Shown here: one piece after another, positions 1 through 41,971 of the stretch | Layout of the letters: each line of letters opens with the position of its first letter | Numbering within the stretch: the stretch's first letter is position 1 | DNA from: Trichoplax sp. H2 | Lineage: Eukaryota | Direction: 5' to 3' | Assembly (NCBI GenBank): GCA_003344405.1 | Contig: NOWV01000164.1 | Span: 1 to 64,000 of the forward strand | Length of the DNA: 64,000 nucleotides | The notes under the pieces: generated by a model | Seen by the model: only the letters and a program-made list of their open reading frames with translations | The model's database searches: none | What the model was told of the DNA's origin: nothing | Translations under genes and position numbers: made by a program

Positions 1-243
1 CCTAACCCTAACCCTAACCCTAACCCTAACCCTAACCCTAACCCTAACCCTAACCCTAACCCTAACCCTAACCCTAACCCTAACCCTAACCCTAACCCTA
101 TCCCTAACCCTAACCCTAACCCTAACCCTAACCCTAACCCTAACCCTAACCCTAACCCTAACCCTAACCCTAACCCTAACCCTAACCCTAACCCTAACCC
201 TAACCCTAACCCTAACCCTAACCCTAACCCTAACCCTAACCCT
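1..243. repeat. Telomeric repeat array (CCCTAA)n = (TTAGGG)n on minus strand; chromosome end
   Basis: About 40 CCCTAA units from base 1, one variant unit (A>T at 101), abrupt junction to unique sequence at 244. Confidence 0.98.
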
Positions 244-1064
244 GACTACAACTGAAAAATTGAGCTAGAAGCTAATATCATGATACCAAACGACGATACT
301 TGCTCAAATTTCGGAAAGAAAAATAAGCATATGTACTTCTCGTATACAGCATCAAGATAATTCTCTTATGTGTGTAATGATATCTCAGCTAGTTGGACAA
401 TGATTATGGAGATAAAGAAAAGATCTTTATTAAGATGCAGATATACCTAACTAGCAGAGATCAGCTTTAGCATGTAGCCAATATAGAAACGCAACAACTG
501 CGTCAATTACATCTAACAGCCACATACTGTAAGCATAACAATCAAGTGATATATCGTGGTACTTTACTGAATTAGACAAGAGTCATTCATTGAACGAACA
601 TGGCAAGGTGTACTGTATTAGAGATACGTCGAAAATAACGTTCAATTGCTAAAATTCACTGTCATTCCATTCAATTTGACGCGTTATTTGTCTAGTTATT
701 ATAAAGCGACTACTTCACACATAGCTTGATTGCATGATAGCACTGAATAATAGCTAATGTTCTATTCTGTATAATAGATGTAGTACTGAACTGAAGTATA
801 TCATATTATAGTTTGTATTGTTTTACTGTATACTCGTACACAAGGTGCATTCTGCAGTAAACTTAAATTATCAAATGAGTACAGTATTGTGATAACAATA
901 TTGTAAAACGTCAATTCTATTCATAGGAACATCCAACGCATTAGCTGTTTATAATCCTAACACTAAAGCGCGTTTCAAGGCACGGCCATCTGCGTACACT
1001 ATCATTATTAAGAATGATAAAGTAAGTACAGTATGTCGTAGATACGGAACTATTTCGGTTGCAG

Positions 1065-1292
1065 GTAATTGAAAATACAGAGAAAATATCCAAAGAATTC
1101 AATTTTAGAGGCATCTACTTCAATAATGACAACTTACGGTCAAACAAGCTTTTCCTCTTGAATGATGGCGATCTTTCCCACTGCTACATTTACGATACTA
1201 AAAAAACACAATTACAATCACATCTACCAGTTTTCCCCTTCAAAACTTACGACATTCAAAGAAATCTTCAGCAATCTGTAGTTTATAGCGAG
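1065..1292 (+). pseudogene. Possible orphan exon from the beta-propeller region of an Apaf-1-like paralogue
   Basis: Open 76-codon phase-0/0 exon (ttgcag|GTA...GAG|gtataa). Its DLSHCYIYDTKK aligns almost in register with DLNSVIIVDHKK of exon 12892-13089 of the intact gene. Similarity is weak. Confidence 0.35.
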
Positions 1293-3739
1293 GTATAAGC
1301 CTGATAGTGAATACCTACTTAACGACTATTGTCTAATAAAACGTATCAAATCTAAATAAAATGCTTCTGATATCGTTGATTGCTATATTAAACGTGTAAT
1401 CGATTTATGTATATCGGATATTATTGCGTTAGTTAATCTTCTATATGATTAATTAAATTATTTTATAGTGGATTTCGTTACGTTGTTAATCTCTTTTTTG
1501 ATGGAACTTATTTAACTACAATGATAGTTGAATTGTAAGTATTCTTGAATAACTGCTGTAAGAGTCTGTGGTATATTTGATTCCAGGATGGTTTTATATT
1601 AAATTTTTCCAAGTGTTGCTATTAAGCCCTTGAAATCTATGCAGGCTGTATGTGGGCGAAATTAATCCAAACTAGGCAAAATAGTAAGATGCTTTTGTAA
1701 TGTCTAAACAGTTAGAATATGCGAATGAGTGAAATACTGTTAATTTACCATCATTAACCAAATAGTGTGCTATTTGTCCTTCCTTCTTTGTTTCGTTCAA
1801 GTTCTACCTTACATTTAGGTCTACACTTTAATTCAATAATTATCCGATTTCTACCTTTTCAAAACACGGAAATAAAGGCCATTAAGTTATTCAGGCTTGG
1901 TGTGGACGAGATTGATTTAGAAAGGATAAAATATTCAACGTAGCAAGACGCATTTTGTATCTAAACGGCTTGAATCAAAGACATCGTTGGTTAGCTATTA
2001 TAAGGAAATAACATACTTTGGCGTACCCTTATTCCCTTCGAAGTTGTACAGTATTTTACATCTAGCTATATACTGTATGTTAAAGGTTTGTATCGAAATT
2101 AGATTTTATATTTATTTAGAAGGCAGTGAAACAACGTCAGTTATTCACTAATAGCCATGACATATTAGTAACTTACTATTAGTGATTTAGTGAACACGTA
2201 ACGACACATTGCATGCATTGCTCGTATTAACTTTATTACTATAGTACTACGTCAGTCGGAATTTGCTACACGCACGGGCTAATTTTGATGACGACTGCAA
2301 TACCGGTTTTAATGATAAAGTCTATCGCACATGATTATTCATTAATGATTCATTGAGTTTGTTTACTTTGCACTTGTAGTTGTTAGAGTAAAAGAGAGCA
2401 GCCTTCCGGATACAAATACTTACTGTACGGTATACCGCTGTTGTAGTGTATATACTTTTAAATACAGTATAGTCTACTTTAAATAAAAGTCATTTTCTGC
2501 TACTGCATAATTTTATATGCGTATAGTCTATATTTAACAATTTACTTCGTAGAAATCTTTCTACACTCTGGTTGAAATATTGTTACATCGTAGAACTCCG
2601 TACCTTAATAGAAAAGTAAGATATTTTTATTAGTCATTCGCGTTTATAAATAATTTCTTCCTGCAAGGTTCTTACATTATAAAAGACATCTTTATGCAAC
2701 TATCACGTTAGTTAGTTCTGCTAGTTACACGATATGCTCGCTTAGTTTACCTATTTTTATTTATTATAGATATTAGATTGATCACGTCTTTACACACGTT
2801 ACAACCTTGAACACAATTATTCTCCTCACATTACTACAAACAAAGACTACTTTTCATCAAGTTATTCTCTTATCATTTCTTGAAATTATGGCGGGTATAG
2901 AATCATGCGTTACATATGGAGAACTAGCTATAATAAAAAGACTCGACATTTGGTAGGTTATTTATGCTCAATTCCTTCGATAAAATTTTTTTCGATGGCA
3001 GTACTACATTAAGACCATATCGACCCTCATACCGCTCTACTACAATCTACTAAAATTAAGTGTTGAAAACTTGATAATTTATTTACGGTAATAGACGCTT
3101 GAACTTCAAATAAATTTGGTTAAAAGAAATCTGTTGAAGTAATGTGGTGCTTCCTATTATTATAAACATAGCGACAACAATACGGCCATGTATGGCCGGG
3201 TTCGGCTAGTTATAAAATAAAATAATTGCAATAGAATATAGGGGCAATCATGATAATAAGATAATTTGGTATAAGGACGAATTAAGGACTGCTAATTGCC
3301 TCTCAACTGAGTTGAATTCACTTTGTTAACATTATAATGTGATAAAGGATACAATTATAGTCAGTTTATAATAAAATTAATTTTTTTGATATCTTTATTT
3401 GACTGATGATGACTAGGGCTCACCGTTATTATATAGTATAAAAGGATTAACTATTACAGAGTTTGATGTAGAATATTAAGGTCTGTAAGATTGCATGGCT
3501 TATATTGGCAATAAAAGAGAAATAAGATCCTCTCAATACCTCTAACTTTCTCTAACACACTAGATGGAAGTATAAGAAAAAAGTGCTCTATAGTTTGGTA
3601 CGGTCGGTTAATCAGAGACCAAATATTGCCAAATGCTCATATTGGCCCTCTATATTGTGGAATACTGCATGTACAGTATAGAACTAAGAACCTAGTGACT
3701 AAATAGCTATCAAACTTAGAACTGGTAGTATCGCCCTAC

Positions 3740-3954
3740 GATAAAATCCAATCTCGGAAATTCAAAGTGGTAGAAAATTAGAACTTTATTAGAACTTATA
3801 CAAAGATTAGCTGCTCACTACACAGAGTCCTTTCTTGAAGCTTTTCAGTAGTTGTATTCGGCTAGAGTAGAGCTGTGTGTCGCTAATTTTTTGTATTATA
3901 TCTAATAACATTCTAATTTTTTATCAACTTGAATTTTTGTGATCGAATTTTATC
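3740..3954. mobile_element. MITE-like imperfect inverted repeat
   Basis: Left arm gataaaatccaatctcggaaattcaaagtggtagaaaattagaac... (~3740-3812) matches the reverse complement of ~3882-3954; no coding capacity. Confidence 0.5.
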
Positions 3955-4316
3955 TAACACCCGCTAAATTAGACCTCTTTTAATGAGTAACACTTTTTTT
4001 TTCACTGCTATTATACATGATATGATAAAACAGGAATAACTAATGATTATAATAACATCAATATTTAAGAGTATGAAATTTCGTGTGCCCTGTATTTTTA
4101 TTCGACTGAAATACCCTGTTTATTTATTTATTCGACCGAAGAGAATTGATAGAGGGTACCCAGTTTGACTACCAGTGGTCTGTGCCACGATAAGAACGCA
4201 ACTTTTATTGATTAAAGAAACCCACAAATCAAATTTATTGTTAATATAAGTAACACAGCAACCGTGTCGACAGTCAAATTGACTGTTTCCAGCGTCGGTA
4301 CACTACACTATACTGA

Positions 4317-4470
4317 CTTACTGTACTGAGTGCTACTGATCAAGGACTCCTATAAAGGTAATCCTTGTACTGATACAACCACTAAACGAGAATCTTACTG
4401 TACTGAGTGCTACTGATCAAGGACTACTAGAAAGGCACTCCTTGTACTGATACAAACACTAAACGAGAAT
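4317..4470. repeat. Tandem duplication, 2 x 77 bp
   Basis: cttactgtactgagtgctactgatcaaggact...cttgtactgatacaa(c/a)cactaaacgagaat occurs twice in tandem with a few mismatches. Confidence 0.9.
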
Positions 4471-4584
4471 GCACTGATTTGTGACGTTGAACTGAGTAGA
4501 CTGGCCTTTACGGTATGGTCATGGATATCTAAAATTTTTACGGGTAAAAATTTTGAAGTTTGTAACATGATATCAGGGCGTTAT

Positions 4585-5160
4585 TATCATCGACTAACAG
4601 TCGAATTTGAGCGACTTCTCATAAGCTAAATAGCCTCATCATGCTTGCTCTGATCAAAATATACTGTACATTTCCCACATTTTGACAAGACGTAATAATA
4701 TCGACATGATTGTCATCAAGGACTAACAATCCTACTTGAATGATTTTTCATAAATAGAAATAGCCTTTTCATCCATGACCTGATTAAAATTAAATTATTC
4801 CTAAATTGTTTTAATATTGAGATGATTTTTCACCGCAGTCTGATAAATGAATTTTAAGTCACTTCTTGTACATAAATAAAGCATCTACATGTTTACCCTG
4901 ATTAATTATTAAATTTTATTCCTGACCGTAATTTAGCACTAAGAATCGAATTTAGAGCTACATTTCATGCATAGAAATAATCTCCCAGGTTTGGTTGATT
5001 ATAATATCTATTTCCAAAATTGTTATATACAGTATGGTATGCTATAACAATACGTTCGGTATCGTGATGACTTTGATCAACGACTAAAAATTTAACTTTA
5101 AGTAAGTTTTCCACAATATAGAAATAGCGTATTCATTCTTGTCTTGATTAATTATTATGC
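4585..5160. repeat. Degenerate tandem array, ~5 copies of ~100-140 bp
   Basis: Recurrent gactaa...gaattt...cata...aaatagc...tcat...ctgattaa skeleton near 4592, 4721, 4841, 4939 and 5082. Confidence 0.6.
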
Positions 5161-5840
5161 GCGCATTTCCTAAGTTGCTTTAGTTTATAGCAATGCCAGG
5201 ATGGTAATGTATTAAGATTGTGCTTGTAGCATATATTTAGACGACTCTATTACTGTAATTTCATTATTTATTTTTGGTGGCCGTGACGTATATTTATAGT
5301 TTAAAATATACAGTACAATAAGTACATTTTAGCTCAATTTCAAAGCTTGATGAGAGACAGGGTGGACCGGGGAGGCTGAAGTTTAGCATCATTTCTTCCT
5401 AAATATTTTGTAAATGTTACAACACATACCTTGAGTTAAAATGGCTTAATAATGCCTTATAAGCAGAAATGACTGCTTAAATGGAAATATTCTGTGGCAT
5501 GTAAAAATAAACAGCACCAAGAAAAATTTTCTGCAAAAAAGTTTAAGTTGGACCACCTGAGTGGATTATTTTCCATTATTGTTATTAAATAGTGCTATTG
5601 ATTGATGGATTTTAAATCTGATAGGAAGCATCGAAATTTTCGATAAGTAAAATTTCACTTATACTAGAGGGTGACGTTGCAAAATTTTCTGAAATGATCT
5701 CAATTAATTAAGTCAAAAGGACTTCCTACTATACGTGGAATCTGTCAAAATCAGTTAATGATTCTCATACATACCGTGATTTCAAGGAATGGCCAATCTT
5801 TTAATGATAGCTATTAATTCTTTTCTCACCTGGTAATATT

Positions 5841-8800
5841 ATGGAGGCCCCAAATTACGATACAGAACAATCTATCTATAATGAAATTGTGGGAAAAAAT
5901 GCTGAAAATTTGAAGCAATTTTTAACTCAATTTATTACAAGATTTTTAGAAAAGTTAGCTGTTTACTCAATGATAGTAACTGGGGATTTATCGTCAAATC
6001 CTGGAAAAAATTTCAAAAGCTTTCAAAAAATTGTCTTTGATATTATTAGGCCAGCAGCCTCATTATTAGGAACTGAAGTGTCCCTACCTATAAACATTGG
6101 GTTAACCTTAGTAGCGTATACGGCCATGGGAATAAAAAAGAAAATCCAAAAGCAAAAAGCAAAAAGAATTTTAAATACATTGCGTCCAAATAGCAATTTA
6201 ACAGTCTTACTAATATCGATACTTGCTTGCGATACATGTAGAATGTATGAACACCAGATAAATTTGCTTGGCAAAGAAGCTTCTTACGGCAATATAAAAA
6301 TCTTGGCAAACACAATAGTTAAACGAGTGTTAAATTTCATTTCATCGAATGCTGTCTCTGCCCAAAAAGAAACTGATGACACTGAAAACTCTTCTACTAA
6401 TTTAGAGGCAATGGCTAAACAATGGATATATGGTGTATTTGATGGAATATCTAAAACATCCTCCAAAGATGTAACTATTACCATAAATGGAAAACGACAA
6501 AAATTTGCTTGCGGGGATTTATTAACTCAGTTAGGAGTCACCCTAGGTGACATGAAACAAACTGCAAAAGTATACTACTTTGAAGATCAATATAAGGATT
6601 ACATTAAGTTCCTGGGACATCGACGATCATCGTTATTGTTAGATCCAAGGAATATTCGTAAGACTAATAGTGCCTATCTTCCGCTGAGCGAATATAGTGA
6701 AGAGAATTCACATTGTTTAAAATCTGATGAATTAAAAAACTTCTTTTACAACAGCAAAATTACTAGCCTGAAGGACTTTATTGAACTCAAACAATATGCT
6801 AAGAAGATACTTAAACTTGTTTTCTGTGACGATCCAACATACTGCATTAAAGAGTCTCTAAAATCCTTAAAAGATATGACTACAGAATTAGTTAGTAAGG
6901 ATGCCCTTCATAAAGAAATCGAGATAACATTAAAGCAAATGGAACAAAAGCTTCCAAAAGCCATTGAAGAAGCGATACAACTATTTCAAACGGAATTTTT
7001 GAGCATGGATAAACTACTTAGTGAGATGAATGAGCGCTTTAAAACTATCGAGTCCGCGACTAGGCAAATTCATAATACGGTGACCGAAAGCTTGGTTCTT
7101 GCGCAGGAACATCTAAGCTTAACTCGTAGTTTGCACGATCTTGTTGCCACTAATGAAACTCTTTCGGTCGCAAAAAATGGTTGGCGTACCAGTACGTAGG
7201 GAACTATAATTGTTAGTTAATGGATAGCAGTAGGAAATTAGAGAGCACACATACTTTCTTGTTACCGCCCATTTATCAATTTTATTACGTTAGATAATGC
7301 TCATCTGAACTACCTCCAAATATGTATTCAAGTATTTACTAACACGTAACGTAATGTAAATCGCACGATCAAACCTGAGTTGGCAAAATTGCTGGCAAAG
7401 ACCGTAGATAGATCAAAAGTTTAGATAATCTGGGTGTAGTAATGTTTATCAGATGCGCAACGGATCAATATTGGTTCACTCTAGAAATATTTGATAAAGC
7501 GCTAGTACTTCATATCTCGTTATCTGGTAACAATGAAGGCAAAGGTATCCTTGAACCAAAACTTTGTGACTGCATAGTTGTCCTTTTCATTGAGTATCTA
7601 GATCATTAATTGCTAGATCGTAACGTTATAAATTAGGTGCAATACAAAGCTCTCCCAGTAACAATTTCATATTTTTAACGTAATTACTTAGAATTACGGT
7701 AGTTCTATTGTAAGTGCGGCGATTTTAATAGAAAATTTATGCAATTTCCTATTCAGACCTTGTAACAAATTCTTTTATTCTACTTTAATAAGTTGTCAGT
7801 TTTTTTGCCCCTGAAGTTGATTCGTTTCTGTAAATGATAGTAATATTATTGATATTATGCTATACTGCTACTAAATGTATGAATTAATCAATTATAATTA
7901 CAGTTCGAACGCCCTACTTGCGATACTCTACTTTGCGAAAAATGTCTACTGTGTATATATTTTTTGAAATTTCTGTTGCTTGCACGACTTCCAAATGTAA
8001 TAATATAATCACAGAACAATATTATTTCTTTAACTTTGTTGTATTATAAGTCGACTTCCTAATTATACTAGCTATATCCATGCCTTTATGAGTACAAAGT
8101 ACTTTATAAGTAACTTATATTAAACTGTGATGCGTTGACTGACGATAAATCTTTACCTAACGGTAAAGGGTAAATTTATTAATAATTACATGTATCAACT
8201 GAGCTAAACCGCTACATTTAGTTACAGTTTCTTATTTTCATTAGTCTCATATTAATTTAACATTTGTATTTTAATAAAATGTAGTGCGACTCCAAGACAT
8301 GTTCAATATACCTGCATATCCCGTTTGCATCGTAAGAAAGGAGTTTATCGATAAGATCGAAAAAGCTTTACAATGTATTAATGAAAAGGATATTAACATA
8401 TTTGTTTATGGACGCGGTGGTAGTGGCAAAACCGTGGCAGTAAGCCAAACAGTCTTACAGTTTTTAAATTCAGGTGGCGATAAGTATGATGTGGTCTGGA
8501 TAAAAATTGGTGAGTGTTACCGTTTTAAAATGCCAGTAATTTTCAATAAATGCATAGCTAGCTGAGTATGCAGGAGTCAACGTAACTTGGAGAACGTACT
8601 TAGCCTCGATTGCCTATGTTTATAATTGCATAAGTTTCCCTTTAGATATCCAGCAATTTTATTACTCTACAACGTTAATACAGTTTCAGAAATAAAAGTG
8701 TGATAATGATCTTACGAAATTTTTATCACATACAATACAGGTGACGTTGATGACATCGAGCTATTTAATATCCTAAAAAAACTGGCCAACAAACTACAGT

Positions 8801-11800
8801 TACCTACAAATGTAAATTCCGAATGGAATCTAGAAGATCTATGCTCGGCGTTAAGAGTGGGTCTGAAGGCTTTTATACAAAGTAATAAGTGTGTATAAAT
8901 ATTTTAGTTGTCAGCAGTATTCGATACCCTTGTTTTAAAATATTCAGAAATGATTTGAATGCGGATTTCTGTACTAAAATGCATACTTGCTTATTCTACT
9001 TTGAATAAAGCGTGATAAATTTTGAAGTTACAGCTATAACTTTTAATTGATTTCAGATTCATCTGCTAGCCTCCTTAAAGTAATCTTCGTATTTGACGAT
9101 GTATGGGATGAACGATACCTTCGCTATTTCAGCTTCGCAGATAATAGCATAGTCACAACACGCTACAATATACAATCAATCATAAGCGTGAATCAAGTGG
9201 CAATAGCAGCGCCGGTCATTAAAAATAGTGCTACTTTCTCTTCGTAATTACTGCCTAATTAGCTAACAAATCAAAATAATACTTTTTCTTATAGAGCGAA
9301 TTTACTTTGGATGAAGCTATGCAAGTTATACAAACATACCAAAAGGATCTCTCACTGGAATTCATTCAAAACCAGAAACATGTTACTCAAGCCATTGAAA
9401 GCTGTCAGAGATTCCCTCTAGCAGTTGCACTAATGGGGGCTCAAAGAATTCATACCGATGAAGAGTGGAAAAATGTCATCAATAAAATACAAGGGAAGAA
9501 CGTAATTCTTAATCAATTTGGTGATTATGATTTTAATCTTTATGAAACTTTCCAACATAGCATTAATAAATTAACATCAAGAAATAGGGATTTATTCAAG
9601 AAATTAGGGGCTTTTAAAAAAGTTGAAATACCCTTAAATATGATAGCAAAAGTGTTTCATTTATCGCTCGATTCTACTATCAACGTTTTGCAGGAATTTC
9701 AAGAAAGAACCTTGATAAACAAGTGTGATATAAGGACTACTAATACTAGCGCGAGGTAATATGTATTTCGATGGTATCATGTTGTACAATTTGTCAATAT
9801 GATTACTGTAACTCTTTACCTTCCAAAATTCACCTATTTCTTGCTCTAGCATAAGTGGAAGTGAAATAATCTGATTTCATTTATAAAGAATTATAAATTT
9901 TTCTTCTCAGCCCTTATAAATTGACCTCAGACTAAAGAATTTGATTCTAAATTTTTAGCAGTTTACGGTATACTATTCATGATTTGTTGATCGATCATTT
10001 GCAAATACCTCCAGAGGAATATGGTGACAAATCAAAAGATAGATATTTAATGGAATTAAACGAACATCTCATAAGTTCCTGTTGTCCTCAAAATGATAAA
10101 AGTTGGTGTTCATTTGAAGATGACGGCTATTTCTACCAAAATATCGTTGATCATGCTATTTTGGCAAATAACTTTACCGTCTTGGAATCATTGTGTACAA
10201 GCATCGAGTGGCTACAAAACAAACTAATAGCTTGTAATTCAATCTCGGAATTTAAGGAAGATATTCGAAAGTGTTACGAGTATTTAAAGAACAATGATAG
10301 GGTTAATAGCATTGAAATATCGTACTTTTAGGATCGTAGTTCTGTCAAACTATTGCTAATTATCAAAATAACGAAATCACATCGTCTCTAAACTGATTTT
10401 ATCTCGTTCTTTAGAATTCTAGGAAACTTACAGAGTTGTATGGTTTACTTCAGAAATACAGCTCTTATTTACCGGCTCATAAAAGCGATTTTATTCAATT
10501 TGTTTTTTCCACTGTCGATGAAGATAATTGGATTTACAAAGCTACTTTAAAACTTGCGAGAAAAAAAATGAAACAAGAAGATAGTTTTTATGCTAAAGTT
10601 AGGTAAGAAAATCAAATTTAATTAAGATCTTTGGGTAGTATACTACAGTATAATACACAAAACTTTGAAATATTTTACAAAGATAATGTTGTGGTTAATT
10701 ATGCCTAACATGCTGATTTTCGTTAATAAATACGGTAGTTATTCGGAGAACCGAAGGTGTGAAGAGTGGGATAGGTCAATAAGGATAAGCTCTGATTTCC
10801 TCGACACTCTACCAAGATGTTCAAATTCGTTGAATGAAACTTTTAAGATCATATCCAGTGCAAATAACGATTCCTCGAATTCAAAAATAAACGTAATATA
10901 CACTATTTTCAATAATTAAAAGAATTTTGATTAAATATAATTATACAATATCAATTTAGCATCTTGTTAACTATATGCAAAATAATATCTGCTAAATTAG
11001 TCTAAATTAAATATCGTTAGGTGATAGATTATAAAAGCGAGGTGGAGGTCTTCAGTATCACGAAAGAAAATATGTTCATCTCTGAAGTTAGAATTTCTGC
11101 TGATGGAGCGATTGTGGCATTTTCTTATTGCAAAATAGCGGTAAATAATACCTAAGGGTAACAATAAATTAAGCAAAGTTTACTAAGACCTGTTACATTC
11201 TCCATCTGAGATACTTTCATTAACCTTTATATTTATAAATATTAAGATTGAGTCTTTGACTATGTTTATTCTGTGATTAAACTGACAAAAAGTGTAAAAG
11301 TTAATCGTCCATCTCAAACAGAGTGATAACCTATCATTGCGAAATGATATACGGTGGGAAGTCTGGAGTGTTAATCCGAAGTATAAAATTTTGTTTGTAA
11401 AAGCCAGCCGGCAAGTTGTAAAACTAGATTTTTTTGATCTAGCGTTTAATTGTACCAATAGTCATTTATTGGTTACTGTGACAGCCGATAGAAAGCAAAT
11501 ACAGGTTAGATATTTCCGTGAAAGATGATTAAAACATAAAATTTTATCGGTGTTATAAGAATATTATCTAATATCTGTATGTCAAGATAAAATCATGCTA
11601 AGTCTTACGATATCTCATAGCTTCCTTATGTGATTATTCTAGCTATGGAAAGTTTTTAAAGATAAATTACTACTATCCAAATCCTCAATAATACACGAAT
11701 ACGAAATCAATGGATGTTCCTTTGCAAATAATGGCCTTCGGTTAATTTCTTGGAGTAAAACATCTGATCATACGTTTTTACCGATGCGGTCGGATTGCTC

Positions 11801-14800
11801 AGCATGTGAAATTAAGGTAAGAAAAATGAAATTGGATGTTAATCGTAAACTGATAAAATGTTGTACATGTATGCTACACTCACATTAATAAAAATACTAT
11901 TGCAGTATTTAAATCAGTATAAGTTTTATTATCGCAGTTGTTAATTATAATTACTATTTGAAATCTTAATTACGGCCACTTTGACGCAATGCATTATTTG
12001 AATAGATTTGGAATGTATCAAACCTCTTGTTACCAAGATCTATTGTAGTTCTAGAAAACATCAAAGTCGAGAAGTACGAAAGTCCAAGCATCGATGCAGC
12101 AGGTTCACTAAGAAGTGTATTAGAGGTTAACGAAAGTATGCTGCTTCTGGACTACAGTATAGCATTGGGACTTCTGCTGGTAGATCTGTATGACAGTGTT
12201 TCTATTCTGAATTTTCGCGAAGTTTATAGAAATATTTTGAAAGCTGTAATTTATTCCGTCACAGTCTCATATGACGGCAAGTATTTCGCTGCGTTAACGT
12301 CACACAACGAAATTATAGTAAGCAATACAATAATAAAATAATAAAATGATCACTTCTCCAATTATGAACACAAATTAGATCTAACACGGTCTCTGAATCG
12401 AAACAATTGTAAAATAGTGTGTGCTGATCTTCACCTGTGTGCTAGCTAAATTTTTCTCATCCTTATAGGTTTTTACTACAGTTGACAACCTTGCCGTTCG
12501 ATATAAAACAATACAGTGTACTGGTCCAAATATTTATGCTACCTTTGTGATGAACCAGGCGCATATTTTAGCTTACAATTGTAATAGGAACAGTATTCAG
12601 CTTTATAAGATTGACACCAATCAAAACACAGAATGTTTTGCTAATAATGAAGATGTTACTATCTCTAATACTTTTGAAGAAGTTCTGCAAGTATCTGCTG
12701 AATTCGTAGCAGGGGTACCGACTTTGATTAAATTGTTGAAATTAAAGGACCAAACCCTTCTTTTAAAGGTGGCACTAGTCTCAGTATTATAAAAAATAAA
12801 TAATTTAAATCCTACCAAATTGAATTAGGACAGTTAAATATCAACATATCAATATGAAGATTCTCATGAAAATATCTTAATTTTAATGCAGGTAATGAAG
12901 GGAAATACTCTAATACCATTATCAGCCATCAATTTGGGAGATTTTTTTGAATATAGGAGATATCAATACTTCTATAAATGCTGCCTTTACTCAGACTTAA
13001 ATTCAGTTATAATTGTTGATCATAAAAAATGCCTCAGTGAATCATGCACTGCGAAGTACAAAGGAATTCATTGGCATTGCACGACTGTGGTAAGATTCAT
13101 ACCCCCAATAGCAGTATCAAAACATCTTTACTTATGCGATTTTTTCCCGACATTAATTTAACATTTTTCTTTTAATATCCAAAGCTATTATATCGGTGGA
13201 TATTAAAAATCTGTTACCTAATGTTTAATATTTGCTGCAACATTTCTGTAATAACTAATCAAAGCATGAATACAGTAATTTTTAAAGTACTATTCACAAG
13301 GCTTGGTTGCAAAGGCTATCATTAGTCTTTCTATCTTATTATTATAGATGTTTTTTTTTTTTTAATATTTATATCATATACGGTATACTGCATCTACTTC
13401 GGTCATTTCTATTTAACTTTGCTGATATGGTCATGTCTTTCAGAACAAAAATTTAGATAACGTAGCAGATACTGTTTGGCGTAACGTTCAAACATTTCCA
13501 GAATGTGTTCACCACTGTTTATCTAAGTATAGACGGTCGGATAAAAAACTGATATTCGTGAAATTGCTCCGAGAATCGGTGAGAGAGATGATCTTCGAAT
13601 TTATGCGTACATTCAATTTTAATACAATTGCACCATTATATTAATAACAATTATAACACTCGGAATAGAGAACATATCATTTAGGGATATTAGACTCTCT
13701 CACTGGTGACAATTTATTTAACTATCAAGATCCATCTGTCAGGATTCAGTATACATTTCTGCTATTCCATGATCAATACAATTTTGTTGCTTATTCTCAA
13801 ACCAAAGAAGATGAACACTTTGTAAAGGTCGGTAAATCAATTGGCATAAATCAATGCTTAATAGTTAAGTAAGCATTATCATAATTATTACATGGTGTGC
13901 GATATTTTTCGCCGAGTAACTCTGATACAAGCATGAAGCCAGTCTTGGCTTTTAGACAATGATTGATTGCTTATAGTAGTAAAACATAGTACGATAAATT
14001 CTAGCACGTTCTTAGGAAGATTTTATTTAATACGTTATTTTAAAACCAACTGATTTGGATATAAAGATTTACCATGTTGGCAGATTCCGTATATCTGTGA
14101 AAGAAAGCAATACTACTAAAATTCAGCAATCTGTAAAGTCTGTGTGCTTGGTTAGCATTTTTCATTCGGAAATTTCTATGACCGATATTGAGGATATAGA
14201 AAATAGATGTCATGACGAAGATCTGTTCGATGATGATTGGAAAGCCATTAAGGTTCTTTATCGTAACGTTAATTATTCTACCTTATTTTAAAGCCATTAG
14301 AGTGAATTTGATCCAGATGGTGGGGCTTAAAAAACAGCCTAACATTATGTATTAAAATTTAAAATATGCTGTTCTCTTTCGAACCAGCAGATAATATAAC
14401 ATCCTAATTTGCTGTGATTAAATATTCTTTCTAACAGTTGAGCTTTATATAATTTGAAAGCTACTATTTATCTTGAGCTATTTATGACTATATATTTCAT
14501 TAGCAGGTGCTTGCTAGTCATATTCACGCTCTAAACAATCTCAGTCCTACATAGCTGATAAAAACTATTTATTGGAAATCAATACAACAGGATCTGATGC
14601 CAAGGAAGAACGGGATTTATTTCATGATAAGAAAGGACCAAGAGTTTGCGGTCAGTAGATTATTTTTAAAAAAATAGTGCAGCTACCAGCCATCAATCTA
14701 CTAATAATCTCATATATGCAGATAATTGATTCAGACAACTACATGTGGGTGAAAGGTTATGGTGAAAGTGTTCTAAATATTGGTATTGGAATGTGGTCCT

Positions 14801-15027
14801 TGGAGAACGTATGGGGAAAAAAGTACATGTCGTACATTTTAGGCGATAGAATACATGTCTATAATAATACTTCACTTAAACTAATGCAAGAACTACAGTT
14901 CCTCTACGTAAGTGCTATAAAAACATTTGTTGCGAATGAAAATATGTCCATATTTATATGCGAAAATGATAAACATGAGTGCTGCATAGTTCAAAGAATT
15001 GGTCGCAGAATTTCTGATGAAACCTAA
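5841..15027 (+). CDS. Apaf-1-like STAND NTPase: unrecognised ~445-aa N-terminal domain + NB-ARC + divergent WD40/beta-propeller; ~19 exons, roughly 1,700 aa
   Basis: Exon 1 5841-~7179/7191 (phase 1) splices to 8285-8509 (Walker A GRGGSGKT), 8741-8881, 9057-9215 (Walker B VIFVFDDVW), 9295-9755 (CQRFPLAVALMG, GxP-like), 9959-10301 (IHDLL, MHD motif; EDDGYFYQNIVDH), then exons with xWxV propeller ends, to TAA at 15027. Frame-consistent GT-AG junctions were found throughout. Linkage of exon 1 is inferred from phase. Confidence 0.8.
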
Positions 15028-16989
15028 AATTGTAAATGTAGAGATCTAATAAATGATTAAAATATTCATTCAATTTATTAACTTCAGCTCGATAAATAGG
15101 TACGGTAGTTACTATCGTAATAAGTAGGCTTATCTAGTATAATTAAGTTTACTTTGAAAATTGCAAAATCGTGCGAAACATTTTGACTTAGGGTCTACAA
15201 GTATACCAGCTTAAGCTTCTAAAAAGTTAAGGATTTGATGTTCTTCATGGAATAAAACTTGCTTACCTTAATCTGACAACGGAAATATCGAAGATTTATA
15301 GCTTTTGTTAATTCTTCCGATCGTGGATCGCTACGCTAATTCTTGAATTGTTTTGAAAACAACAGCTAAAGGATTATCAGGAAAATACAATAATTCACCC
15401 ACAACAGCTTAAAGCCTTTCTTTGTACTCAGTTAAACCTCAATTTCGATGCGCTGATGATTTAAACAGAAAATTCATAAAAACTACAGGATGTTATGCAG
15501 TTAAAATAAGTTGCAGCTCTTTCAAAATAAAGCCAGCTAGGCTAGCAATCCTAAATATCATGTTAACTAAAAAGAAATATGATATATCTGTTATCAGTCA
15601 TAGAATAATAGACTCCTTTAGCTACAGCCTATATCTAAAGCCAAATACAATGAAATCAGAATGTACTCAAATCATTCCTTTACGTTACGACCATTAATCA
15701 GTTGATGAGCTTACTTTTCATGTACTGTACTGCAGGTGACTAGAAATGGTTTCACAGCTAAAGCATACGTTAGCAATTATTGAAATTATTAAAATGTAGA
15801 CATAAGAGCTGCAATATTTATAAATGAGCTGGACATCCGATGTCCAACTAGTATTTATAGAAAATAGGTAATATTTTACGATATGAGTAGAGTACTGCTT
15901 ATAGCGTAATAACAGTTTCTATCTATCTATAATTCAACGTTATTGAACACTGAATAAAAACTTCGCAACGCATGCAAAGTTACTTCGTTTAGTTTATAAT
16001 CTAACGTTTTGAGTATAGAGTTTACCCCGTTACAATTAAAATACAACACGTATTACGTATGACAAAGCCTGCTAGCATAGATATGAAACAACTGTTTTCC
16101 GATCGACTTTTAATTTCCGGGGCTTTTTGATGTAAGGGCAATGTACAGTAAGTAAAGGAAAAGTGAAATCGATTTGATCCGGGAAAAATGAAAGGTTGAC
16201 ATTGCCATTAATTTGTGAGCTTTCTTCTATAATACTGTACAGTACTATACTAGTACAAACTCCCGTCGCTTTGCTGACGGTTTACGATAATGTGCTCATT
16301 TAACAGATAGTATTACCATTTGATAGACCTGTCGGAGTAGAGAACTGAGTGCTTTTGGTAGGTAGTTGTAAACAATATTTCCCGATAAATAGCACTTATA
16401 CTTTCTATAAATTATGCTGCGATGTTAGAATTATAAGAACAGCGTAAATCGGGTTTATAATTTGTGATTGATAAGTCGATGAGTAGCGGTAGTGAGCTTC
16501 GTTACCATTTCAAGAATTATTACGCCATGCTTATAGTATAAAATGGATACTTTATTGCCGATTATAAGATGCGTACTGTGTGGTAGTTACTGCAGAGTAG
16601 CGTGTAAGCTATCGCGAAATAACGTGAGAAATACCGTGCTATCTTGGCTGCTAAAGTAGCTAACTATCTGAGATGTAGCTATTAGTTTTTATCGCCTTAG
16701 CGAGAACACATGCAGAGAACAAGATTGCAGAATTAGATATAACATATACCATGACAGTCTCTACAATAGCAAAGGCCTGCAAGAATGTAGCAAAGACGCG
16801 AGCTGCCTCGAGTATTTAAACATGACAATTACTATTGTGCATATGGGGAAAGGTTGATAAAGTTATCTACATTGCGAACAACTTAGAATGGCTATGAGGA
16901 TATGCTACAAGTACAATAAAATCTTAACCCTATACTAAATCGTTACTTCTAATTCTTTTCTGTCGGTCACTCTGTTAGCTGCCGTAAAC

Positions 16990-18060
16990 AATTTTAATTT
17001 CATCGTAAGCCTAATCTAGTCTTTTAATTTATTAGCTAATTTTGGGAGAATCTTTCGGTCTACCTTGAACGGGATCTGTTCTCTTATCGTGGAGATTTGA
17101 CTCCAATATTTGAAGGGAATAGCAGCGCAAGGATTAGAAATCTTTTATCTCATATAATCGACTTTGGCTTACATAATTTTTATAATTTTTTAGGATATCG
17201 AAATCTAATGTGTTCAATTCGTACTCTTGTGAATTTAATTTAGACTTATTGGATGCTTTGCAGCCATAGCAAGGATCAGCTAGCAATGATGAATTCCGAT
17301 AGCCCTAGATTCTTTCCTAAGCTGTAGAAGTTTCTTTTCCATTGAATGCTCTACCTTCACCTATTAAGCTGTTATTGGTGATAGGCAAATGACTTAACAA
17401 TGTAGTATAACTAATTTCGTGTTTTATTTCACGATATTCGATCAGTAATAGTTTTGACGCCCCTTCGAATACCCTATCGATAAATTTTTTGCCTAAGACT
17501 TCGATACCGATAAGGGAAGTTCCTTGGCCTTTACAGATTTGAATTTTTGATATGTAATTCAGAACTCTATTAATAACGGTATTGGCCAAATTTTGCAAAT
17601 TACTAACTGAATTCGTCTGTCCAAGCTTAATAATCTGGCATTCCAACATTCTGCACGCATCGTATACGATTAAGGTTAAAGACATTATTGGAAAAATTAC
17701 GTCATGATATGGTAGTAAAGTATTAGTAATTTCGCTGCTTTGTCCATTTCAGTTTTGCTTTTGACCTTGTAGGCGGCAGAGGATAACAGGCTTATCCAAT
17801 ATACACCGATGATGCAATTTCTAGTCCAACGAAAGAGACAGTCGGTTTGAGAAAGTCAGAAATAGTCATCTGGAAATGCTGCACAGACTTTTCTGCAGCT
17901 ACGTCTTCATCATCTCTGGAAATTACAGTATACGCGTGTAATGTCTTATTTTTCAATGAATTTTCTCACACGCATAGTCATAAAGTCTTTAAGAGTTTGG
18001 CTATGGATAGTATTAAAATTTTCGAAAGCTGGAACCTTTTTTTAAGTTATGGCCATAATC
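16990..18060 (-). pseudogene. Degraded paralogue of the N-terminal exon of the Apaf-1-like gene
   Basis: ORF 17685-17317 DACRMLECQIIKLG...QNLANTVINRVLNYIS...KFIDRVFEGASK matches DTCRMYEHQINLLG...KILANTIVKRVLNFIS...QWIYGVFDGISK. Flanks give QTLKDFMT..., FLKPTVSFVGLEI and GYRNSSLLADP (vs GHRRSSLLLDP), interrupted by stops and frameshifts. Confidence 0.85.
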
Positions 18061-19134
18061 TTGTTGTTCTGATATAATTACTGTTTCTCTAAATATCTTC
18101 CTACAAAAACAGTATCTTGCGTTACAGGAGGTATTATAACAAGAGTGGTAGGATTGCTCTCAGATTTCACTAAGAAGAATGCACGCTATTAGAAATTGAT
18201 GCGGAAGAAAATTGTCTAGTGAAAGACTAGAGCATTTCCGAAATCTATAGTACATATTCTTTATAACATAAGAAAAGGCATTATTACAAGAATGGTCACT
18301 ATAAGTTGCTTAGGTGTTCTTTATTGCAGTAAATTTTTTCACCATAAGCAGTTTAGGTGCTCATTATTATAGTGTATTTTTAAACTTAAAAATCTTATTT
18401 ACGAAGTAAAGACTTTGATTTGACCTACTGTGATACCAAAAGATTCAACTTGCCGTGCATGGAAGGCACCTGATGGGCAATAAGAAAAATAATTACAAGA
18501 TTCGCGATCGGCTGCTATGCTACATAAGACGACGTCAATACTAAGCATAATAAGCTTAATAAATTCTATATTTTCTTTCATTTAGATCTGTCAGTATAAT
18601 TGTACTTATACGCTTGTTTGTTTCTTTACACAGCAACGATTGATTTTTTCTGATCACAGGTTTATTCATTAATATTAGTATTTCATCGACCTCAGATATG
18701 AAAATGCCGTAAATTGTATTTTTGTTGCTTTAGTCATATTGTAGATCTTATGATAAAGAATTTATTGAACATCGTAGTCTACTGATAGAAAATTTCTCTA
18801 GAGCGAACATCTCGTTGAGAAACCAAAGCTTTTTGGGGGAATGATAATACCTTACGGAAGTATGAAACTTTGCCAACACAGCGCATAGAAGTAGAAAATA
18901 GTACAGAACATCCAGCAATGATTGAGGCTTCAGACAGATGGCAACATTTATTTGGAGAATTGTGAATTCAGTATTTGTACAGTACGCGAGTATTACGAGA
19001 GAGAGATTTGCCAGTATTCACTTAAAGCATTTTGTACAATAACATTTACATCATTGAAAATAATTCAATATTCTGATTATAATTTGAAAACAAGAATGGT
19101 AAATAACATGGTAAATCTATCGTACATGAGTGCC

Positions 19135-20061
19135 TTAACTTGGTAGGCATCCTCTTTTCATAATACCATTCTCGTTCACTGATGCATTTAGGGTTGTTCG
19201 ATACCACGAAAACATCTGTGAGCTTTTAGAAATGCATTCTTATCCTTGAGTTTCGACTGCTCAGCTAATAATAATTTATTACATGATTTCGCCATTATCT
19301 TCCATTAACCACGTCTGCTATAATATCATGATTTAGAATTGTAATTAATAATATATACTGCATGCTTTCTTAACACTTCATGTGGTTTACTGAATTATAT
19401 TTTACCGCAATGGAGCGTATAGTACTGTCATATATGATATTGCATCGAATTTAGTACACAAATTCATCGTTCATATGAATAGCTGCAACTTTAGATTATT
19501 ATTAACTGAGTATGTTACTGAGACATTCTCATGTGCTCGTATATATTATTCAAGAACCACAGAAAAATAAAAGAAATTAAGTTTGTAAGACAGAAAATTG
19601 AATACGTTAACGGGTTGAAAGGAACCGTAGAAGCATATAGTAAGTGCAAACGATCGTAACCATATTACCGCAGAGTTTCTTTTGTCCATTGATAAAGTGA
19701 CAATAAGGCAGCCTTGATATGGTGGAAACTTTAAGCTTTGGGTTTCTAGACCGGAGTTAATCCAATCGCCATTCGTCGGAAAGTTTAGTTTTCGATGATC
19801 TTTAGCGTTCATATCTCCCAAATCCTTTTCACCTTTCCATTGGAATACTTCGTATCGAAAATATTCTATCTTATCTAAGTTTTTAACTGACCATACTTTG
19901 TAAAATGTGATATAGTTACAGATTGATAGTCATTTAGTGAGGCTCCATAAATTACAATTACTCCTAAATATTACCCCAAATTTTCGTGCTCTTTAGTCTA
20001 ACACTGTTTCAACTTATAATTGTAAAAGATTTTGTATACCTACTTATATCTTTTGGTTCCC
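19135..20061 (-). pseudogene. Decayed beta-propeller exons of an Apaf-1-like paralogue
   Basis: ~19897-19665 VWSVKNLDKI...GCLIVTLSMDKRN resembles VWSVNPKYKI...SHLLVTVTADRKQ (exon 11322-11503). The exon starting at 19314, TWLMEDNGEIM**IIIS*AVETQG*ECISKSSQMFSWYRT, is colinear with LWKVF...YEINGCSF...LISWSKT (exon from 11643) but has 4 stops. Confidence 0.65.
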
Positions 20062-20914
20062 TGCAATAAGCTAATTTGTATATGCAGAGAGAACTATTTA
20101 TACCAATAATACGAATTTTCTCTATCTAATATTTGGAATAGTTTTAGCTGATGGATGATAGGACGTAGGTTAGTGACAGTCTACTTGAACATGAAAAATA
20201 AACTTATGTTCATTATCAGCTTACATGTGATTCGCAGTAATAATTTATGGCTTCCTGAGAGGAATAGAAATAGAATTACTCAGGGGATAAATCAGTAGAA
20301 TGAAGTAATTCGTAATAAGCATAAAAATAGTTTTATTAATTTATTCTATACCAGATATTATACAACAAGTCTCTCGCAATATACAATAAAGTATTCCTAA
20401 ATATCGCTGGGTGTTGACGCCATCTCGATTATATCTGAAAGCGTCGCGATAACTACCATCGAGCATCGACTGCTTGAATTAATAACGTATGATTATAATC
20501 TAGCATAATGACTTAATAAAATATAAATAGAATTGGATCCATCAGGCTGTACAGACATGGTACATCAGCGTACAAATCTATTAACTATCACAACGATAGC
20601 TATTCCGACTCAATACAAGGATGCGATAACCTTCTATCTTTAATTAAGTAAATTTCAATTTTAAATAGTGCTGCATTGTCGTATTCAAACTGGTAACGCT
20701 ATAACTATGCATTCGTATGCCAATAATTCGATATCTAGCCTTGAAACTTTTTGGTGTTACATGTCAGCAATGGTATGGGATAACCACAAAGGTAGACTTT
20801 GGAAACAATTTTTCATTGCAATACCAGCCATTGGAATTTTTGTGTCATCCCACGGTTTGGAACAATTGCTCGTGATACCACGATAATTTGATTTAACCTT
20901 TATACTTTTAAGAG

Positions 20915-37510: not shown

Positions 37511-41971
<4,461 letters not shown>

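What the first reader, a model, noticed from the sequence alone, without database searches (positions are those of the whole stretch)
244..20100. Subtelomeric birth-and-death cluster of Apaf-1-like genes
Seen: between the telomere and the first conserved gene (NPRL3), the only coding-like material I can assign belongs to one family. There is one intact gene plus relics at ~1.1-1.3 kb (+), 17-18 kb (-) and 19-20 kb (-). The relics are highly diverged, so they are not recent duplicates. Inference: chromosome ends act as a diversification zone for NB-ARC receptors, analogous to subtelomeric contingency loci and plant NLR clusters.
Basis: partly seen in the sequence, partly recalled or inferred. 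Interest (0 to 1): 0.7.

Follow-up and report, generated by a model that had tools for sequence, protein, structure and literature searches.

The report
Apaf-1-like gene beside a telomere
The last gene before a placozoan chromosome end is one working Apaf-1-like cell-death sensor with an unusual front domain, followed by a single dead fragment of an old relative, not a cluster of relics.

Summary
The window starts with a true-looking telomere: 40.5 CCTAAC units at 1-243. The first gene, 5.6 kb in, is an intact Apaf-1-like gene on the + strand (CDS 5841-15027). It is 100% identical over exon 1 to a protein named Apaf-1 of Trichoplax sp. H2.

Contigs of run X1 join its exons across GT..AG introns. 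They add two 3' exons that the database model lacks.

Only 1 of the 3 claimed relics is real. Window 17050-18041 (-) matches the family at E 6e-31, with 4 in-frame stops and at least one frameshift. It matches only the N-terminal domain, not NB-ARC.

The ORFs at 1.1-1.3 kb and 19-20 kb match nothing above chance.

The N-terminal domain (about 350 residues plus a long helix) replaces the CARD. It has no Pfam family and no similar solved fold. Only 16 of 1.84 billion representatives match it, and every named one is placozoan.

The Apaf-1 expansion in placozoans is already published (PMC6321704). Enrichment near telomeres could not be tested because no genome is held.

Verdict: observation partly confirmed, "cluster" overstated, modest interest.

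The parts
1..243 (.). Telomeric repeat (CCCTAA)n, which is TTAGGG on the other strand, running to the window's first base
   Evidence: Sequence. TRF gives period 6, 40.5 copies, 99% matches.
5641..15293 (+). Transcribed span of the intact Apaf-1-like gene (CDS 5841-15027, 19 exons)
   Evidence: X1 contigs cover 5641-7191, 8285-9753 and on to 15293. One search lists 14 GT..AG joints within the gene, with 8 further joints not shown. P0001 maps exactly as 17 exons.
5841..7190 (+). Exon 1: placozoan-specific N-terminal domain (core residues about 15-350) plus a long helix (about 353-447)
   Evidence: 16 of 1.84 billion representatives match it. No Pfam family at E up to 1 beyond noise. Models. No similar solved fold.
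8287..9753 (+). Exons 2-5: NB-ARC ATPase module (P0001 residues 470-696), with the P-loop in exon 2
   Evidence: Pfam NB-ARC E 1.8e-18. CED-4 E 4.9e-10. With the family profile, Apaf-1 E 2.1e-25.
9957..10600 (+). Exons 6-7: winged-helix region and APAF-1 helical domain (P0001 residues 831-944)
   Evidence: Pfam APAF1_C 39 bits against a cut-off of 22.8. Exon-level hit E 2.6e-06.
10737..14252 (+). Exons 8-17: C-terminal repeat region, probably a beta-propeller
   Evidence: Only sub-threshold Pfam propeller matches: EML_2 E 7.6e-4 and THOC3 E 1e-3. Aligns with P0004 and P0005 at 26-27% identity.
14591..15027 (+). Two further coding exons (14591-14650 and 14722-15027, stop included) that the database model P0001 lacks
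   Evidence: Joint listed as 14250>14589, GT..AG, cut +2, so 14252>14591. X1 contig over 14721-15293. Open translations. The last exon aligns with the C-terminus of P0005, E 3e-08.
17050..18041 (-). Pseudogene fragment of an N-terminal-domain paralogue of the P0005 clade
   Evidence: tblastn with P0005 E 6e-31, 35% identity. HMM pieces in three reading frames. 4 in-frame stops along the P0005-guided path. Sister to P0005 at 100/98, on a long branch of 1.29. Held in unspliced contigs of X1, X3 and X5.
16249..16337 (.). Fragment of a high-copy repeat, probably a transposon end
   Evidence: Word depth of 246-1172 in the bin 16132-16793 in four runs, with many contigs ending at 16248/16249. No tRNA and no Rfam family.
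1026..1298 (+).
   Evidence: No Pfam family. hhalign E 0.094, probability 0.6%. HMM 0.6 bits, within the decoy range. No homologue found.
19546..19929 (-).
   Evidence: No Pfam family. hhalign E 0.19 over 14 columns. No homologue found.
20918..24099 (-). NPRL3, the first conserved gene
   Evidence: Pfam NPR3 E 1.5e-11 and 3.5e-08, HTH_NPRL3 E 3.6e-15.

Best explanation
This is the end of a placozoan chromosome, from Trichoplax sp. H2 or a near-identical strain.

Anatomy:
- The gene closest to the telomere is a single, intact, expressed member of the placozoan Apaf-1-like expansion.
- Its 19 exons encode about 1,717 residues.
- The order of parts is: a placozoan-specific N-terminal domain of about 350 residues, a helix of about 100 residues, an NB-ARC ATPase, a winged-helix and APAF-1 helical region, and a C-terminal repeat region that is probably a propeller.

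How it most likely works (inferred from what is known of STAND ATPases such as Apaf-1 and CED-4):
- The C-terminal repeats hold the protein off until a ligand binds.
- Nucleotide exchange in NB-ARC then drives oligomerisation.
- Oligomerisation clusters the N-terminal domains, which are the output.
- The same N-terminal domain also occurs alone and fused to a Death domain. I therefore think it works as a homotypic recruitment module that stands in for the CARD and links these sensors to death-fold signalling. Odds: about 0.5 that it is the output module, about 0.3 that it acts by homotypic recruitment.

The relic:
- Downstream and convergent lies a dead fragment of exon 1 of an old paralogue. 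It has stops and frameshifts and is probably still transcribed.
- It most likely comes from a P0005-type sensor gene that lost the rest of its body (about 0.55). The alternative is a domain-only partner gene (about 0.3).

The other two 'relics' are chance ORFs. The position beside the telomere is real, but a single case does not show a rule.
For: - Telomere.
- Identity: exon 1 is 100% identical to P0001, which the source names Apaf-1 of Trichoplax sp. H2.
- Domains: NB-ARC 67.2 bits and APAF1_C 39 bits, both above their cut-offs. The only solved match of P0001 is CED-4. With the family profile the six best rows are Apaf-1, E 2e-25 to 7e-24.
- ATPase motifs, read in P0001 (motif names recalled): GRGGSGKT, FVFDDVWD, TTR, FPLA, IHD.
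- Expression and splicing: X1 contigs join the exons at GT..AG sites with only 2 base differences across the gene. One search lists 14 such joints within the gene, and they agree with the 17-exon map of P0001.
- 3' extension.
- Architectures of the N-terminal domain: with NB-ARC in P0001, P0004, P0005 and P0014; with Death in P0015 (22.6 bits, at the cut-off) and P0018 (E 6e-11); alone in P0002, P0006 and P0007.
- In T. adhaerens, consecutive locus tags suggest that members lie side by side: 62114 and 62115, and 61448 and 61449.
- Relic.
- Differences between the two relic versions fall 4/7/9 on codon positions 1/2/3. That is 20 of the listed differences, and 134 more were not shown. There is no third-position excess.
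Against: - Nothing shows activation, oligomerisation or any partner. The complex prediction never ran.
- The propeller is not confirmed: only sub-threshold Pfam matches and no model was made of it.
- The domain-only proteins P0002, P0006 and P0007 come from short unnamed contigs of 1.9-6.5 kb and may be truncated sensors.
- P0003 and P0005 look like faulty gene models, because the P-loop region is cut short in the alignment.
- The library kind of run X1 is only guessed to be RNA. RNA libraries can contain DNA, so transcription of the relic is probable rather than shown.
- The relic's 3' continuation could have decayed beyond detection, so its origin remains open.
Confidence: 0.75

Rival explanations
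1. The subtelomere is a birth-and-death nursery for Apaf-1-like/NB-ARC receptors, holding one live gene and several decayed copies, as part of a genome-wide concentration of the family at chromosome ends.
For: - One live gene and one dead fragment of the same family lie within 18 kb of the telomere.
- The relic belongs to another, older clade, which fits long-term turnover.
- The published list of 42 NACHT/NB-ARC genes has 12 with locus tags of 011350 or higher. That is 29% of the genes in the last 7% or so of 12,200 gene models. It would mean small, hard-to-assemble scaffolds, but only if tags run from large to small scaffolds, which I did not verify.
- The paper states that several Apaf-1 genes lie in clusters.
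Against: - 2 of the 3 claimed relics are at chance level.
- The one real relic has no NB-ARC part.
- There is only one intact gene, so this is not a cluster.
- Most of the 42 published genes have isolated locus tags.
- Rough odds, given 39 NB-ARC genes among 12,200 models: about 0.3% that such a gene is last at a given end, and a few per cent that it is last at one of 12 ends (2n = 12 is recalled). The finding was also picked after the fact.
Confidence: 0.15
2. The relic is what is left of a separate, domain-only partner gene (an adaptor or effector paired with the sensor), not of a second Apaf-1-like gene.
For: - Only the N-terminal domain is detectable. The 1.7 kb between the relic's end and the gene's 3' end holds no NB-ARC trace.
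- Proteins with the domain alone or with Death exist.
- In T. adhaerens such proteins carry locus tags next to those of sensors: 61448 and 61449, and 62114 and 62115.
Against: - Its nearest relative, P0005, is a sensor with NB-ARC and C-terminal repeats.
- A deletion or a repeat insertion could have removed the rest. A high-copy repeat fragment lies at 16249-16337.
- The domain-only proteins may be truncated models.
Confidence: 0.3
3. The two unsupported ORFs (1026-1298 + and 19546-19929 -) are true relics of propeller exons that have decayed beyond statistical detection.
For: - Both weak hhalign alignments fall in propeller-type blades of the family: columns 1121-1182 and 1058-1071 of P0001.
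- BLASTP of the first ORF against P0004 gives E 0.31 on the matching blade.
Against: - hhalign E 0.094 and 0.19, with probabilities of 0.6% and 0.3%.
- The neighbouring weak HMM hits are not in colinear order, and 19 of 30 decoys do as well or better.
- Pfam finds nothing in them.
Confidence: 0.1

Closest known systems
Apaf-1 / CED-4 / Dark apoptosome scaffolds (NB-ARC STAND ATPases of animals)
   Same: NB-ARC with intact nucleotide-binding motifs, the APAF-1 helical domain and long C-terminal repeats. The closest solved sequences are CED-4 and Apaf-1.
   Different: No CARD was detected. In its place stands a placozoan-only domain of about 350 residues plus a helix of about 100. NB-ARC is only 33% identical even to its nearest paralogues. 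The ligand and the downstream caspase link are unknown.
The published placozoan Apaf-1/NB-ARC expansion (Kamm et al. 2019, PMC6321704; passages and supplementary file 1 read)
   Same: Same organism and same family. The paper lists 42 NACHT/NB-ARC genes (39 NB-ARC) and at least 12 Apaf-1 homologues, some in clusters and several without a recognised effector domain.
   Different: In the passages and the table I read, the paper does not describe this N-terminal domain, the telomere-adjacent position or the pseudogene. I could not map P0001 to one of its locus tags. Its PDF supplements were not readable here.
Plant NLR clusters and subtelomeric contingency families such as var, VSG and yeast subtelomeric families (recalled, not tested)
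   Same: A fast-evolving defence-type gene next to a telomere, with a pseudogene of the same family beside it.
   Different: Those systems have many paralogues per end and show exchange among ends. Here there is one gene and one fragment, from different old clades, and no evidence yet of exchange.
Fungal NLRs with interchangeable N-terminal effector domains that also occur as separate proteins (PMC9815663; search listing and start of abstract only)
   Same: One N-terminal module occurs fused to the NTPase, fused to another signalling domain (Death) or alone, with family members as genomic neighbours.
   Different: No sequence or fold relation to any fungal effector domain was found. No amyloid motif was looked for.

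Membership tests
Apaf-1/CED-4-type NB-ARC STAND ATPases | NB-ARC domain above Pfam's curated cut-off | tested here: met
   P0001 residues 470-696: 67.2 bits against 23.5, E 1.8e-18. Exon-level hits.
Apaf-1/CED-4-type NB-ARC STAND ATPases | Intact Walker A and Walker B motifs and the further NB-ARC motifs | tested here: met
   GRGGSGKT, FVFDDVWD, TTR, FPLA and IHD were read in P0001. The motif definitions are recalled, not computed.
Apaf-1/CED-4-type NB-ARC STAND ATPases | APAF-1 helical domain after the NTPase | tested here: met
   PF17908: 39 bits against 22.8, residues 831-944.
Apaf-1/CED-4-type NB-ARC STAND ATPases | Closest solved relatives are Apaf-1 or CED-4 rather than other STAND clades | tested here: met
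   CED-4 is the only match of P0001, E 4.9e-10. With the family profile the six best rows are Apaf-1 at E 2e-25 to 7e-24, followed by plant NLRs at E 3e-11 or weaker.
Apaf-1/CED-4-type NB-ARC STAND ATPases | C-terminal WD40 beta-propellers | tested here: inconclusive
   Only sub-threshold propeller matches: EML_2 19.4 bits against 90, THOC3 18.6 against 305. No model of this part was made.
Apaf-1/CED-4-type NB-ARC STAND ATPases | N-terminal CARD | tested here: inconclusive
   Pfam finds no CARD or Death in exon 1 at E up to 1. No death-fold chain appears among the listed fold matches. The space is filled by a different conserved domain, but a hidden death-like bundle is not excluded.
Apaf-1/CED-4-type NB-ARC STAND ATPases | Ligand-triggered oligomerisation that activates a caspase | not testable with these tools
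   Needs biochemistry.
Subtelomeric multigene (birth-and-death) family | Lies beside a terminal telomere repeat | tested here: met
   The array lies at 1-243 in the orientation expected of a left end. The gene's ATG is 5,597 bases further in.
Subtelomeric multigene (birth-and-death) family | Several paralogues of the family at that end | tested here: not met
   1 intact gene and 1 fragment. 2 of 3 claimed relics are at chance level.
Subtelomeric multigene (birth-and-death) family | Pseudogenes next to live members | tested here: met
   The relic at 17050-18041 (-) has 4 stops and at least 1 frameshift.
Subtelomeric multigene (birth-and-death) family | Family enriched near telomeres genome-wide | not testable with these tools
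   No genome is held for this window. The collections hold no placozoan assembly.
Subtelomeric multigene (birth-and-death) family | Copies shared or exchanged among chromosome ends | tested here: inconclusive
   Run X1 holds two versions of the relic region: the window's own and a divergent one that carries most of the same differences as run X3's contig. That contig is about 94% identical (87 differences over 1,528 bases, plus 28 gaps). These could be two haplotypes or two ends.
Placozoan N-terminal-domain family (unnamed) | Significant match to the conserved core, including the block around A-C-D-x-C-R-M-x-E-H-Q-I | tested here: met
   Intact gene. Relic.

The most novel reading that the evidence does not exclude
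The domain of about 350 residues at the front of this protein is a new, placozoan-born signalling module that took over the CARD's role in a subset of Apaf-1-like sensors. It would connect them to Death-domain adaptors carrying the same module. In addition, the telomere-adjacent sensor gene would be present on only one of two divergent haplotypes, making this a presence/absence polymorphism at a chromosome end. In that case chromosome ends would be where placozoans, which reproduce mainly clonally, gain and lose such sensors.
Probability: 0.2. Interest if true: 0.6.

Novelty: new variant of a known kind. Interest (0 to 1): 0.35.

Why it matters
- Placozoans are among the simplest animals, yet they have an unusually large Apaf-1-like repertoire whose outputs are unknown.
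- A family-specific N-terminal module occurs on sensors, on Death-domain proteins and alone. This is a concrete candidate for how some of these sensors signal without a CARD, and it is directly testable by expression and pull-down.
- The telomere-adjacent position and the dead neighbour give one data point for the idea that animal NLR-like genes turn over at chromosome ends. That idea becomes testable once telomere-to-telomere placozoan assemblies are searched.
- On its own, the locus is an ordinary member of a published expansion.
- The database gene model also needs correcting at its 3' end.

Tried and rejected
- Whole-genome test of telomere enrichment: no genome is held.
- Earlier findings of this scan: nothing by place, words or sequence.
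- ESM Atlas: closed for the window's own sequence. The stored homologue P0002 gave no usable hit.
- PADLOC and NCBIfam: nothing for the N-terminal domain. P0001 gave only sub-threshold NTPase and TPR rows.
- Fold searches, full exon-1 model: only coiled-coil look-alikes of the long helix, Z up to 6.5, and no Foldseek match at E up to 0.001.
- Fold searches, core model: best Z 4.3, with 0 of 48,161 chains at Z 5 or more, and no Foldseek match at E up to 0.001. A missing match does not prove a new fold.
- Membrane-insertion idea: a hydrophobic stretch at residues 80-98 has mean hydropathy 1.55 in P0001. It is weaker or absent in the distant members P0009 and P0014, so I did not build on it.
- Spliced-leader idea for 16249-16337: rejected. 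Contigs break at any repeat, there is no fitting splice donor, and other copies run on with their own consensus.
- tRNA and Rfam scans of 1-25000: 0 tRNA genes, and 2 Rfam rows far below their gathering scores.
- RNA runs: no holder is on record as RNA.
- Uncovered parts: window 906-2229 is covered by no contig in any of the 4 runs laid. Runs X2, X3 and X5 (organism B) have no contig of 90% identity or more on 5540-15469, while they do cover 16.1-19.4 kb. This is not evidence of absence.
- Complex prediction (two copies of the core domain): the queue was full at every attempt, so the job never ran.
- Word-indexed homologue search of the NB-ARC region: only P0004 and one distant protein.
- Literature: no paper holds the locus tags or the accession. 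None links Trichoplax, subtelomeres and NLR genes: 9 papers hold both search terms, 8 were listed, and none is relevant by title.

Full report
**What is there**

The window opens with 40.5 units of CCTAAC (99% matches) at 1-243. This is the orientation expected of a left chromosome end. G+C is 0.31-0.36 over the first 24 kb.

Stop-to-stop ORFs on the + strand between 5.8 and 15.0 kb form a multi-exon gene. Pfam finds NB-ARC on the ORFs 8278-8565 (E 1.1e-05) and 9295-9759 (E 3.5e-04), and the APAF-1 helical domain on 9951-10331 (E 2.6e-06).

A search of 1.84 billion protein representatives with exon 1 returned a 1,608-residue protein, P0001, identical over residues 1-450. Its source names it "Apoptotic protease-activating factor 1 [Trichoplax sp. 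H2]". The window therefore comes from that placozoan or a near-identical strain.

On P0001, NB-ARC scores 67.2 bits (cut-off 23.5) and APAF1_C 39 bits (cut-off 22.8). Propeller families match only below their cut-offs. The only solved sequence that P0001 matches is CED-4 (E 4.9e-10). A profile that includes the paralogues puts Apaf-1 first (E 2.1e-25), well ahead of plant NLRs. The nucleotide-binding motifs are all present in the sequence (motif names recalled).

NPRL3 follows on the - strand at 24099..20918. Further in lie an intronless Mago nashi, an Arf-like GTPase and an OATP transporter.

**Expression and gene model**

P0001 maps exactly onto 17 exons. One public run, X1 (organism A; library kind only guessed as RNA), holds contigs nearly identical to the window, with 2 base differences across the gene. 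They join the exons at GT..AG sites. One search lists 14 such joints within the gene, and 8 further joints were not shown. That is the signature of spliced mRNA.

One joint is listed as 14250>14589 with a cut of +2, which places it at 14252>14591. It leaves the last annotated exon before P0001's stop codon. A contig then covers 14721-15293.

The two added exons are open. The last one aligns with the C-terminus of the paralogue P0005 (E 3e-08; tblastn E 5e-06). The database model is therefore truncated. The gene has 19 exons and encodes about 1,717 residues. Contigs start at 5641, about 5.4 kb from the telomere repeat.

**The claimed relics**

I ran four tests:
- tblastn of 17 exon ORFs against the window.
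- tblastn of all 16 family proteins.
- A family HMM against all six-frame ORFs of 15 aa or more.
- Pfam on 10 chosen ORFs and on 150 of 163 flank ORFs of 35 aa or more.

Only one place outside the gene scores: 17050-18041 on the - strand.
- It matches exon 1 of the intact gene at 30% identity over 233 aa (E 2e-17).
- It matches T. adhaerens P0005 at 35% identity (E 6e-31).
- The HMM pieces lie in three reading frames and cover profile positions 18-316, all within the N-terminal domain.
- Along the P0005-guided path there are 4 in-frame stops and a frameshift near 17732-17742.
- Nothing downstream of it (17050 to 15300) matches NB-ARC or the repeats.

So it is a real, old pseudogene fragment, but of the N-terminal domain only.

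The ORFs at 1026-1298 (+) and 19546-19929 (-) fail every test.
- Pfam finds no family in them.
- hhalign against the family alignment gives E 0.094 (probability 0.6%) and E 0.19 (14 columns).
- In an HMM scan of the flanks (580 ORFs), the best score was 0.7 bits, and the 1026-1295 ORF scored 0.6. In 19 of 30 decoys (29 shuffles, 1 reversal) the best score was 0.7 or more.
- The two word-indexed searches among longer proteins found nothing at E up to 10, which is weak evidence by the tool's own note.

**The relic's history**

In a maximum-likelihood tree of the N-terminal domains (11 rows, with the relic read through with X), the relic is sister to P0005 (support 100/98) on a branch twice as long (1.29 against 0.62). 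The intact gene groups with P0002, P0006 and P0007 (96/96). The two neighbours thus belong to different old clades and are not a recent local duplication.

The relic region is held in unspliced contigs of X1 and of two libraries on record as RNA, X3 and X5 (organism B). One X3 contig of 1,536 nt covers 16600-18127 with 87 differences and 28 gaps.

X1 holds two versions there: the window's own, and a divergent one that shares most of its differences with the X3 contig. These could be two haplotypes or two chromosome ends. Divergent alleles shared between placozoan lineages have been described (PMC6057997, passages).

Twenty of the listed differences fall 4/7/9 on codon positions 1/2/3, with 134 more not shown. 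I see no sign of purifying selection.

**The N-terminal domain**

Only 16 of 1,835,955,588 representatives match it at E up to 0.001. All ten that I looked up are Trichoplax or unnamed records.

It occurs in three settings:
- In front of NB-ARC: P0001, P0004, P0005, P0014.
- In front of a Death domain: P0015 at 22.6 bits, and P0018 of Trichoplax sp. H2 at E 6e-11.
- Alone: P0002, P0006, P0007, all from short contigs, so possibly truncated.

In T. adhaerens, consecutive locus tags on one scaffold suggest that members are neighbours.

It has no Pfam, PADLOC or NCBIfam family. AlphaFold2 with the 16-row alignment gives a core model of pLDDT 75.7 and pTM 0.81. The model is helices plus small sheets, followed in the full exon by a helix of about 95 residues.

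Neither Foldseek nor VIA-align finds a convincing solved counterpart: best Z 4.3, and 0 of 48,161 chains at Z 5 or more. That does not prove a new fold. No CARD or death fold was seen, but this is inconclusive.

Against the paralogues P0004 and P0005, the N-terminal core and NB-ARC are equally conserved (33-34% identity). The C-terminal repeats (26-27%) and the helix (17-21%) are less so.

**How it most likely works**

Shown: the domain order, intact ATPase motifs, splicing and expression.

Inferred from the established behaviour of Apaf-1 and CED-4-type STAND ATPases:
- The C-terminal repeats sense a ligand.
- NB-ARC exchanges nucleotide and oligomerises.
- The clustered N-terminal domains pass the signal on.

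Because the same module sits on Death-domain proteins and on small proteins, homotypic recruitment in the manner of a CARD is my preferred reading (about 0.3). The broader claim that the domain is the output module I put at about 0.5. I could not test self-association because the complex tool's queue stayed full.

**Comparison with what is known**

The expansion of Apaf-1-like genes in Trichoplax sp. H2 is published: 42 NACHT/NB-ARC genes, at least 12 Apaf-1 homologues, some in clusters and several without a recognised effector domain (PMC6321704, passages and supplementary file 1). That paper never mentions telomeres.

In its table most locus tags are isolated. Twelve of the 42 have tags of 011350 or higher, which would mean small scaffolds only if tags follow scaffold size; I did not verify that. 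I could not map P0001 to a tag, and the paper's PDF supplements were not readable here.

Searches found no paper holding the family's locus tags and none linking Trichoplax, subtelomeres and NLR genes (titles only).

**Verdict**

- The interpretation as a cluster is overstated, and the general rule is untested.
- The gene is a new variant of a known kind: an Apaf-1-like sensor with a placozoan-only N-terminal module.
- Interest is modest at 0.35. It would rise if the module proves to be a CARD substitute, or if chromosome ends prove to be where these sensors turn over.

Noticed in passing
window 14252-15027 (+): The database protein model for this gene (P0001, 1,608 aa) ends 12 residues after a splice donor that the transcripts use. 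Contigs splice 14252>14591 and the reading frame runs on through 14591-14650 and 14722-15024, adding 121 residues that align with the C-termini of the paralogues.
   Followed up: yes
window 16249-16337 and 3830-3891: Short stretches with very high word depth in all four runs: 246-1172 in the bin around 16.2-16.8 kb, and 30-127 in the bin around 3.6-4.2 kb. Many contigs end there. They are probably fragments of high-copy repeats or transposon ends. No tRNA or Rfam match.
   Followed up: partly
window 16600-18350: Run X1 holds two versions of the relic region: the window's own and a divergent one. The divergent one shares most of its differences with a contig of run X3 (organism B), which differs from the window at 87 of 1,528 bases and has 28 gaps. 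Indels of 12 and 6 bases and single-base differences lie near the window's frameshifts. These are either two haplotypes or two chromosome ends.
   Followed up: partly
window 4317-4470: A 77-base unit repeated twice in tandem (93-94% identity) in the gene-free stretch between the telomere and the gene.
   Followed up: no
window 18100-19410: Contigs of X1 and X2 cover parts of 17843-19409, between the relic and NPRL3. No ORF there has a Pfam family. This could be the relic's upstream transcript or another non-coding RNA.
   Followed up: no
window 26265-26714 (+), 31100-31642 (-), 38270-42001 (-), 48291-51288 (+): An intronless Mago nashi ORF (E 2.5e-73), an Arf-family GTPase exon (E 1.1e-54), ORFs with one sub-threshold AI-2E-transporter match, and four OATP transporter exons. 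These are ordinary conserved genes starting about 26 kb from the telomere.
   Followed up: no
proteins P0003 and P0005 (T. adhaerens), alignment A4 columns 655-700: Both models jump from the start of the P-loop (G-I-G-G-C-G) straight to a later segment, where P0004 and P0014 have about 30 more residues. A missed exon or a faulty gene model is likely, so P0003 (555 aa) may be a truncated sensor rather than a short protein.
   Followed up: no
protein P0019 (unnamed source): A distant NB-ARC relative of 1,883 aa carries a C-terminal caspase domain (Peptidase_C14, E 2.2e-16) and a TCAD9 domain. It is a sensor and protease in one chain.
   Followed up: no
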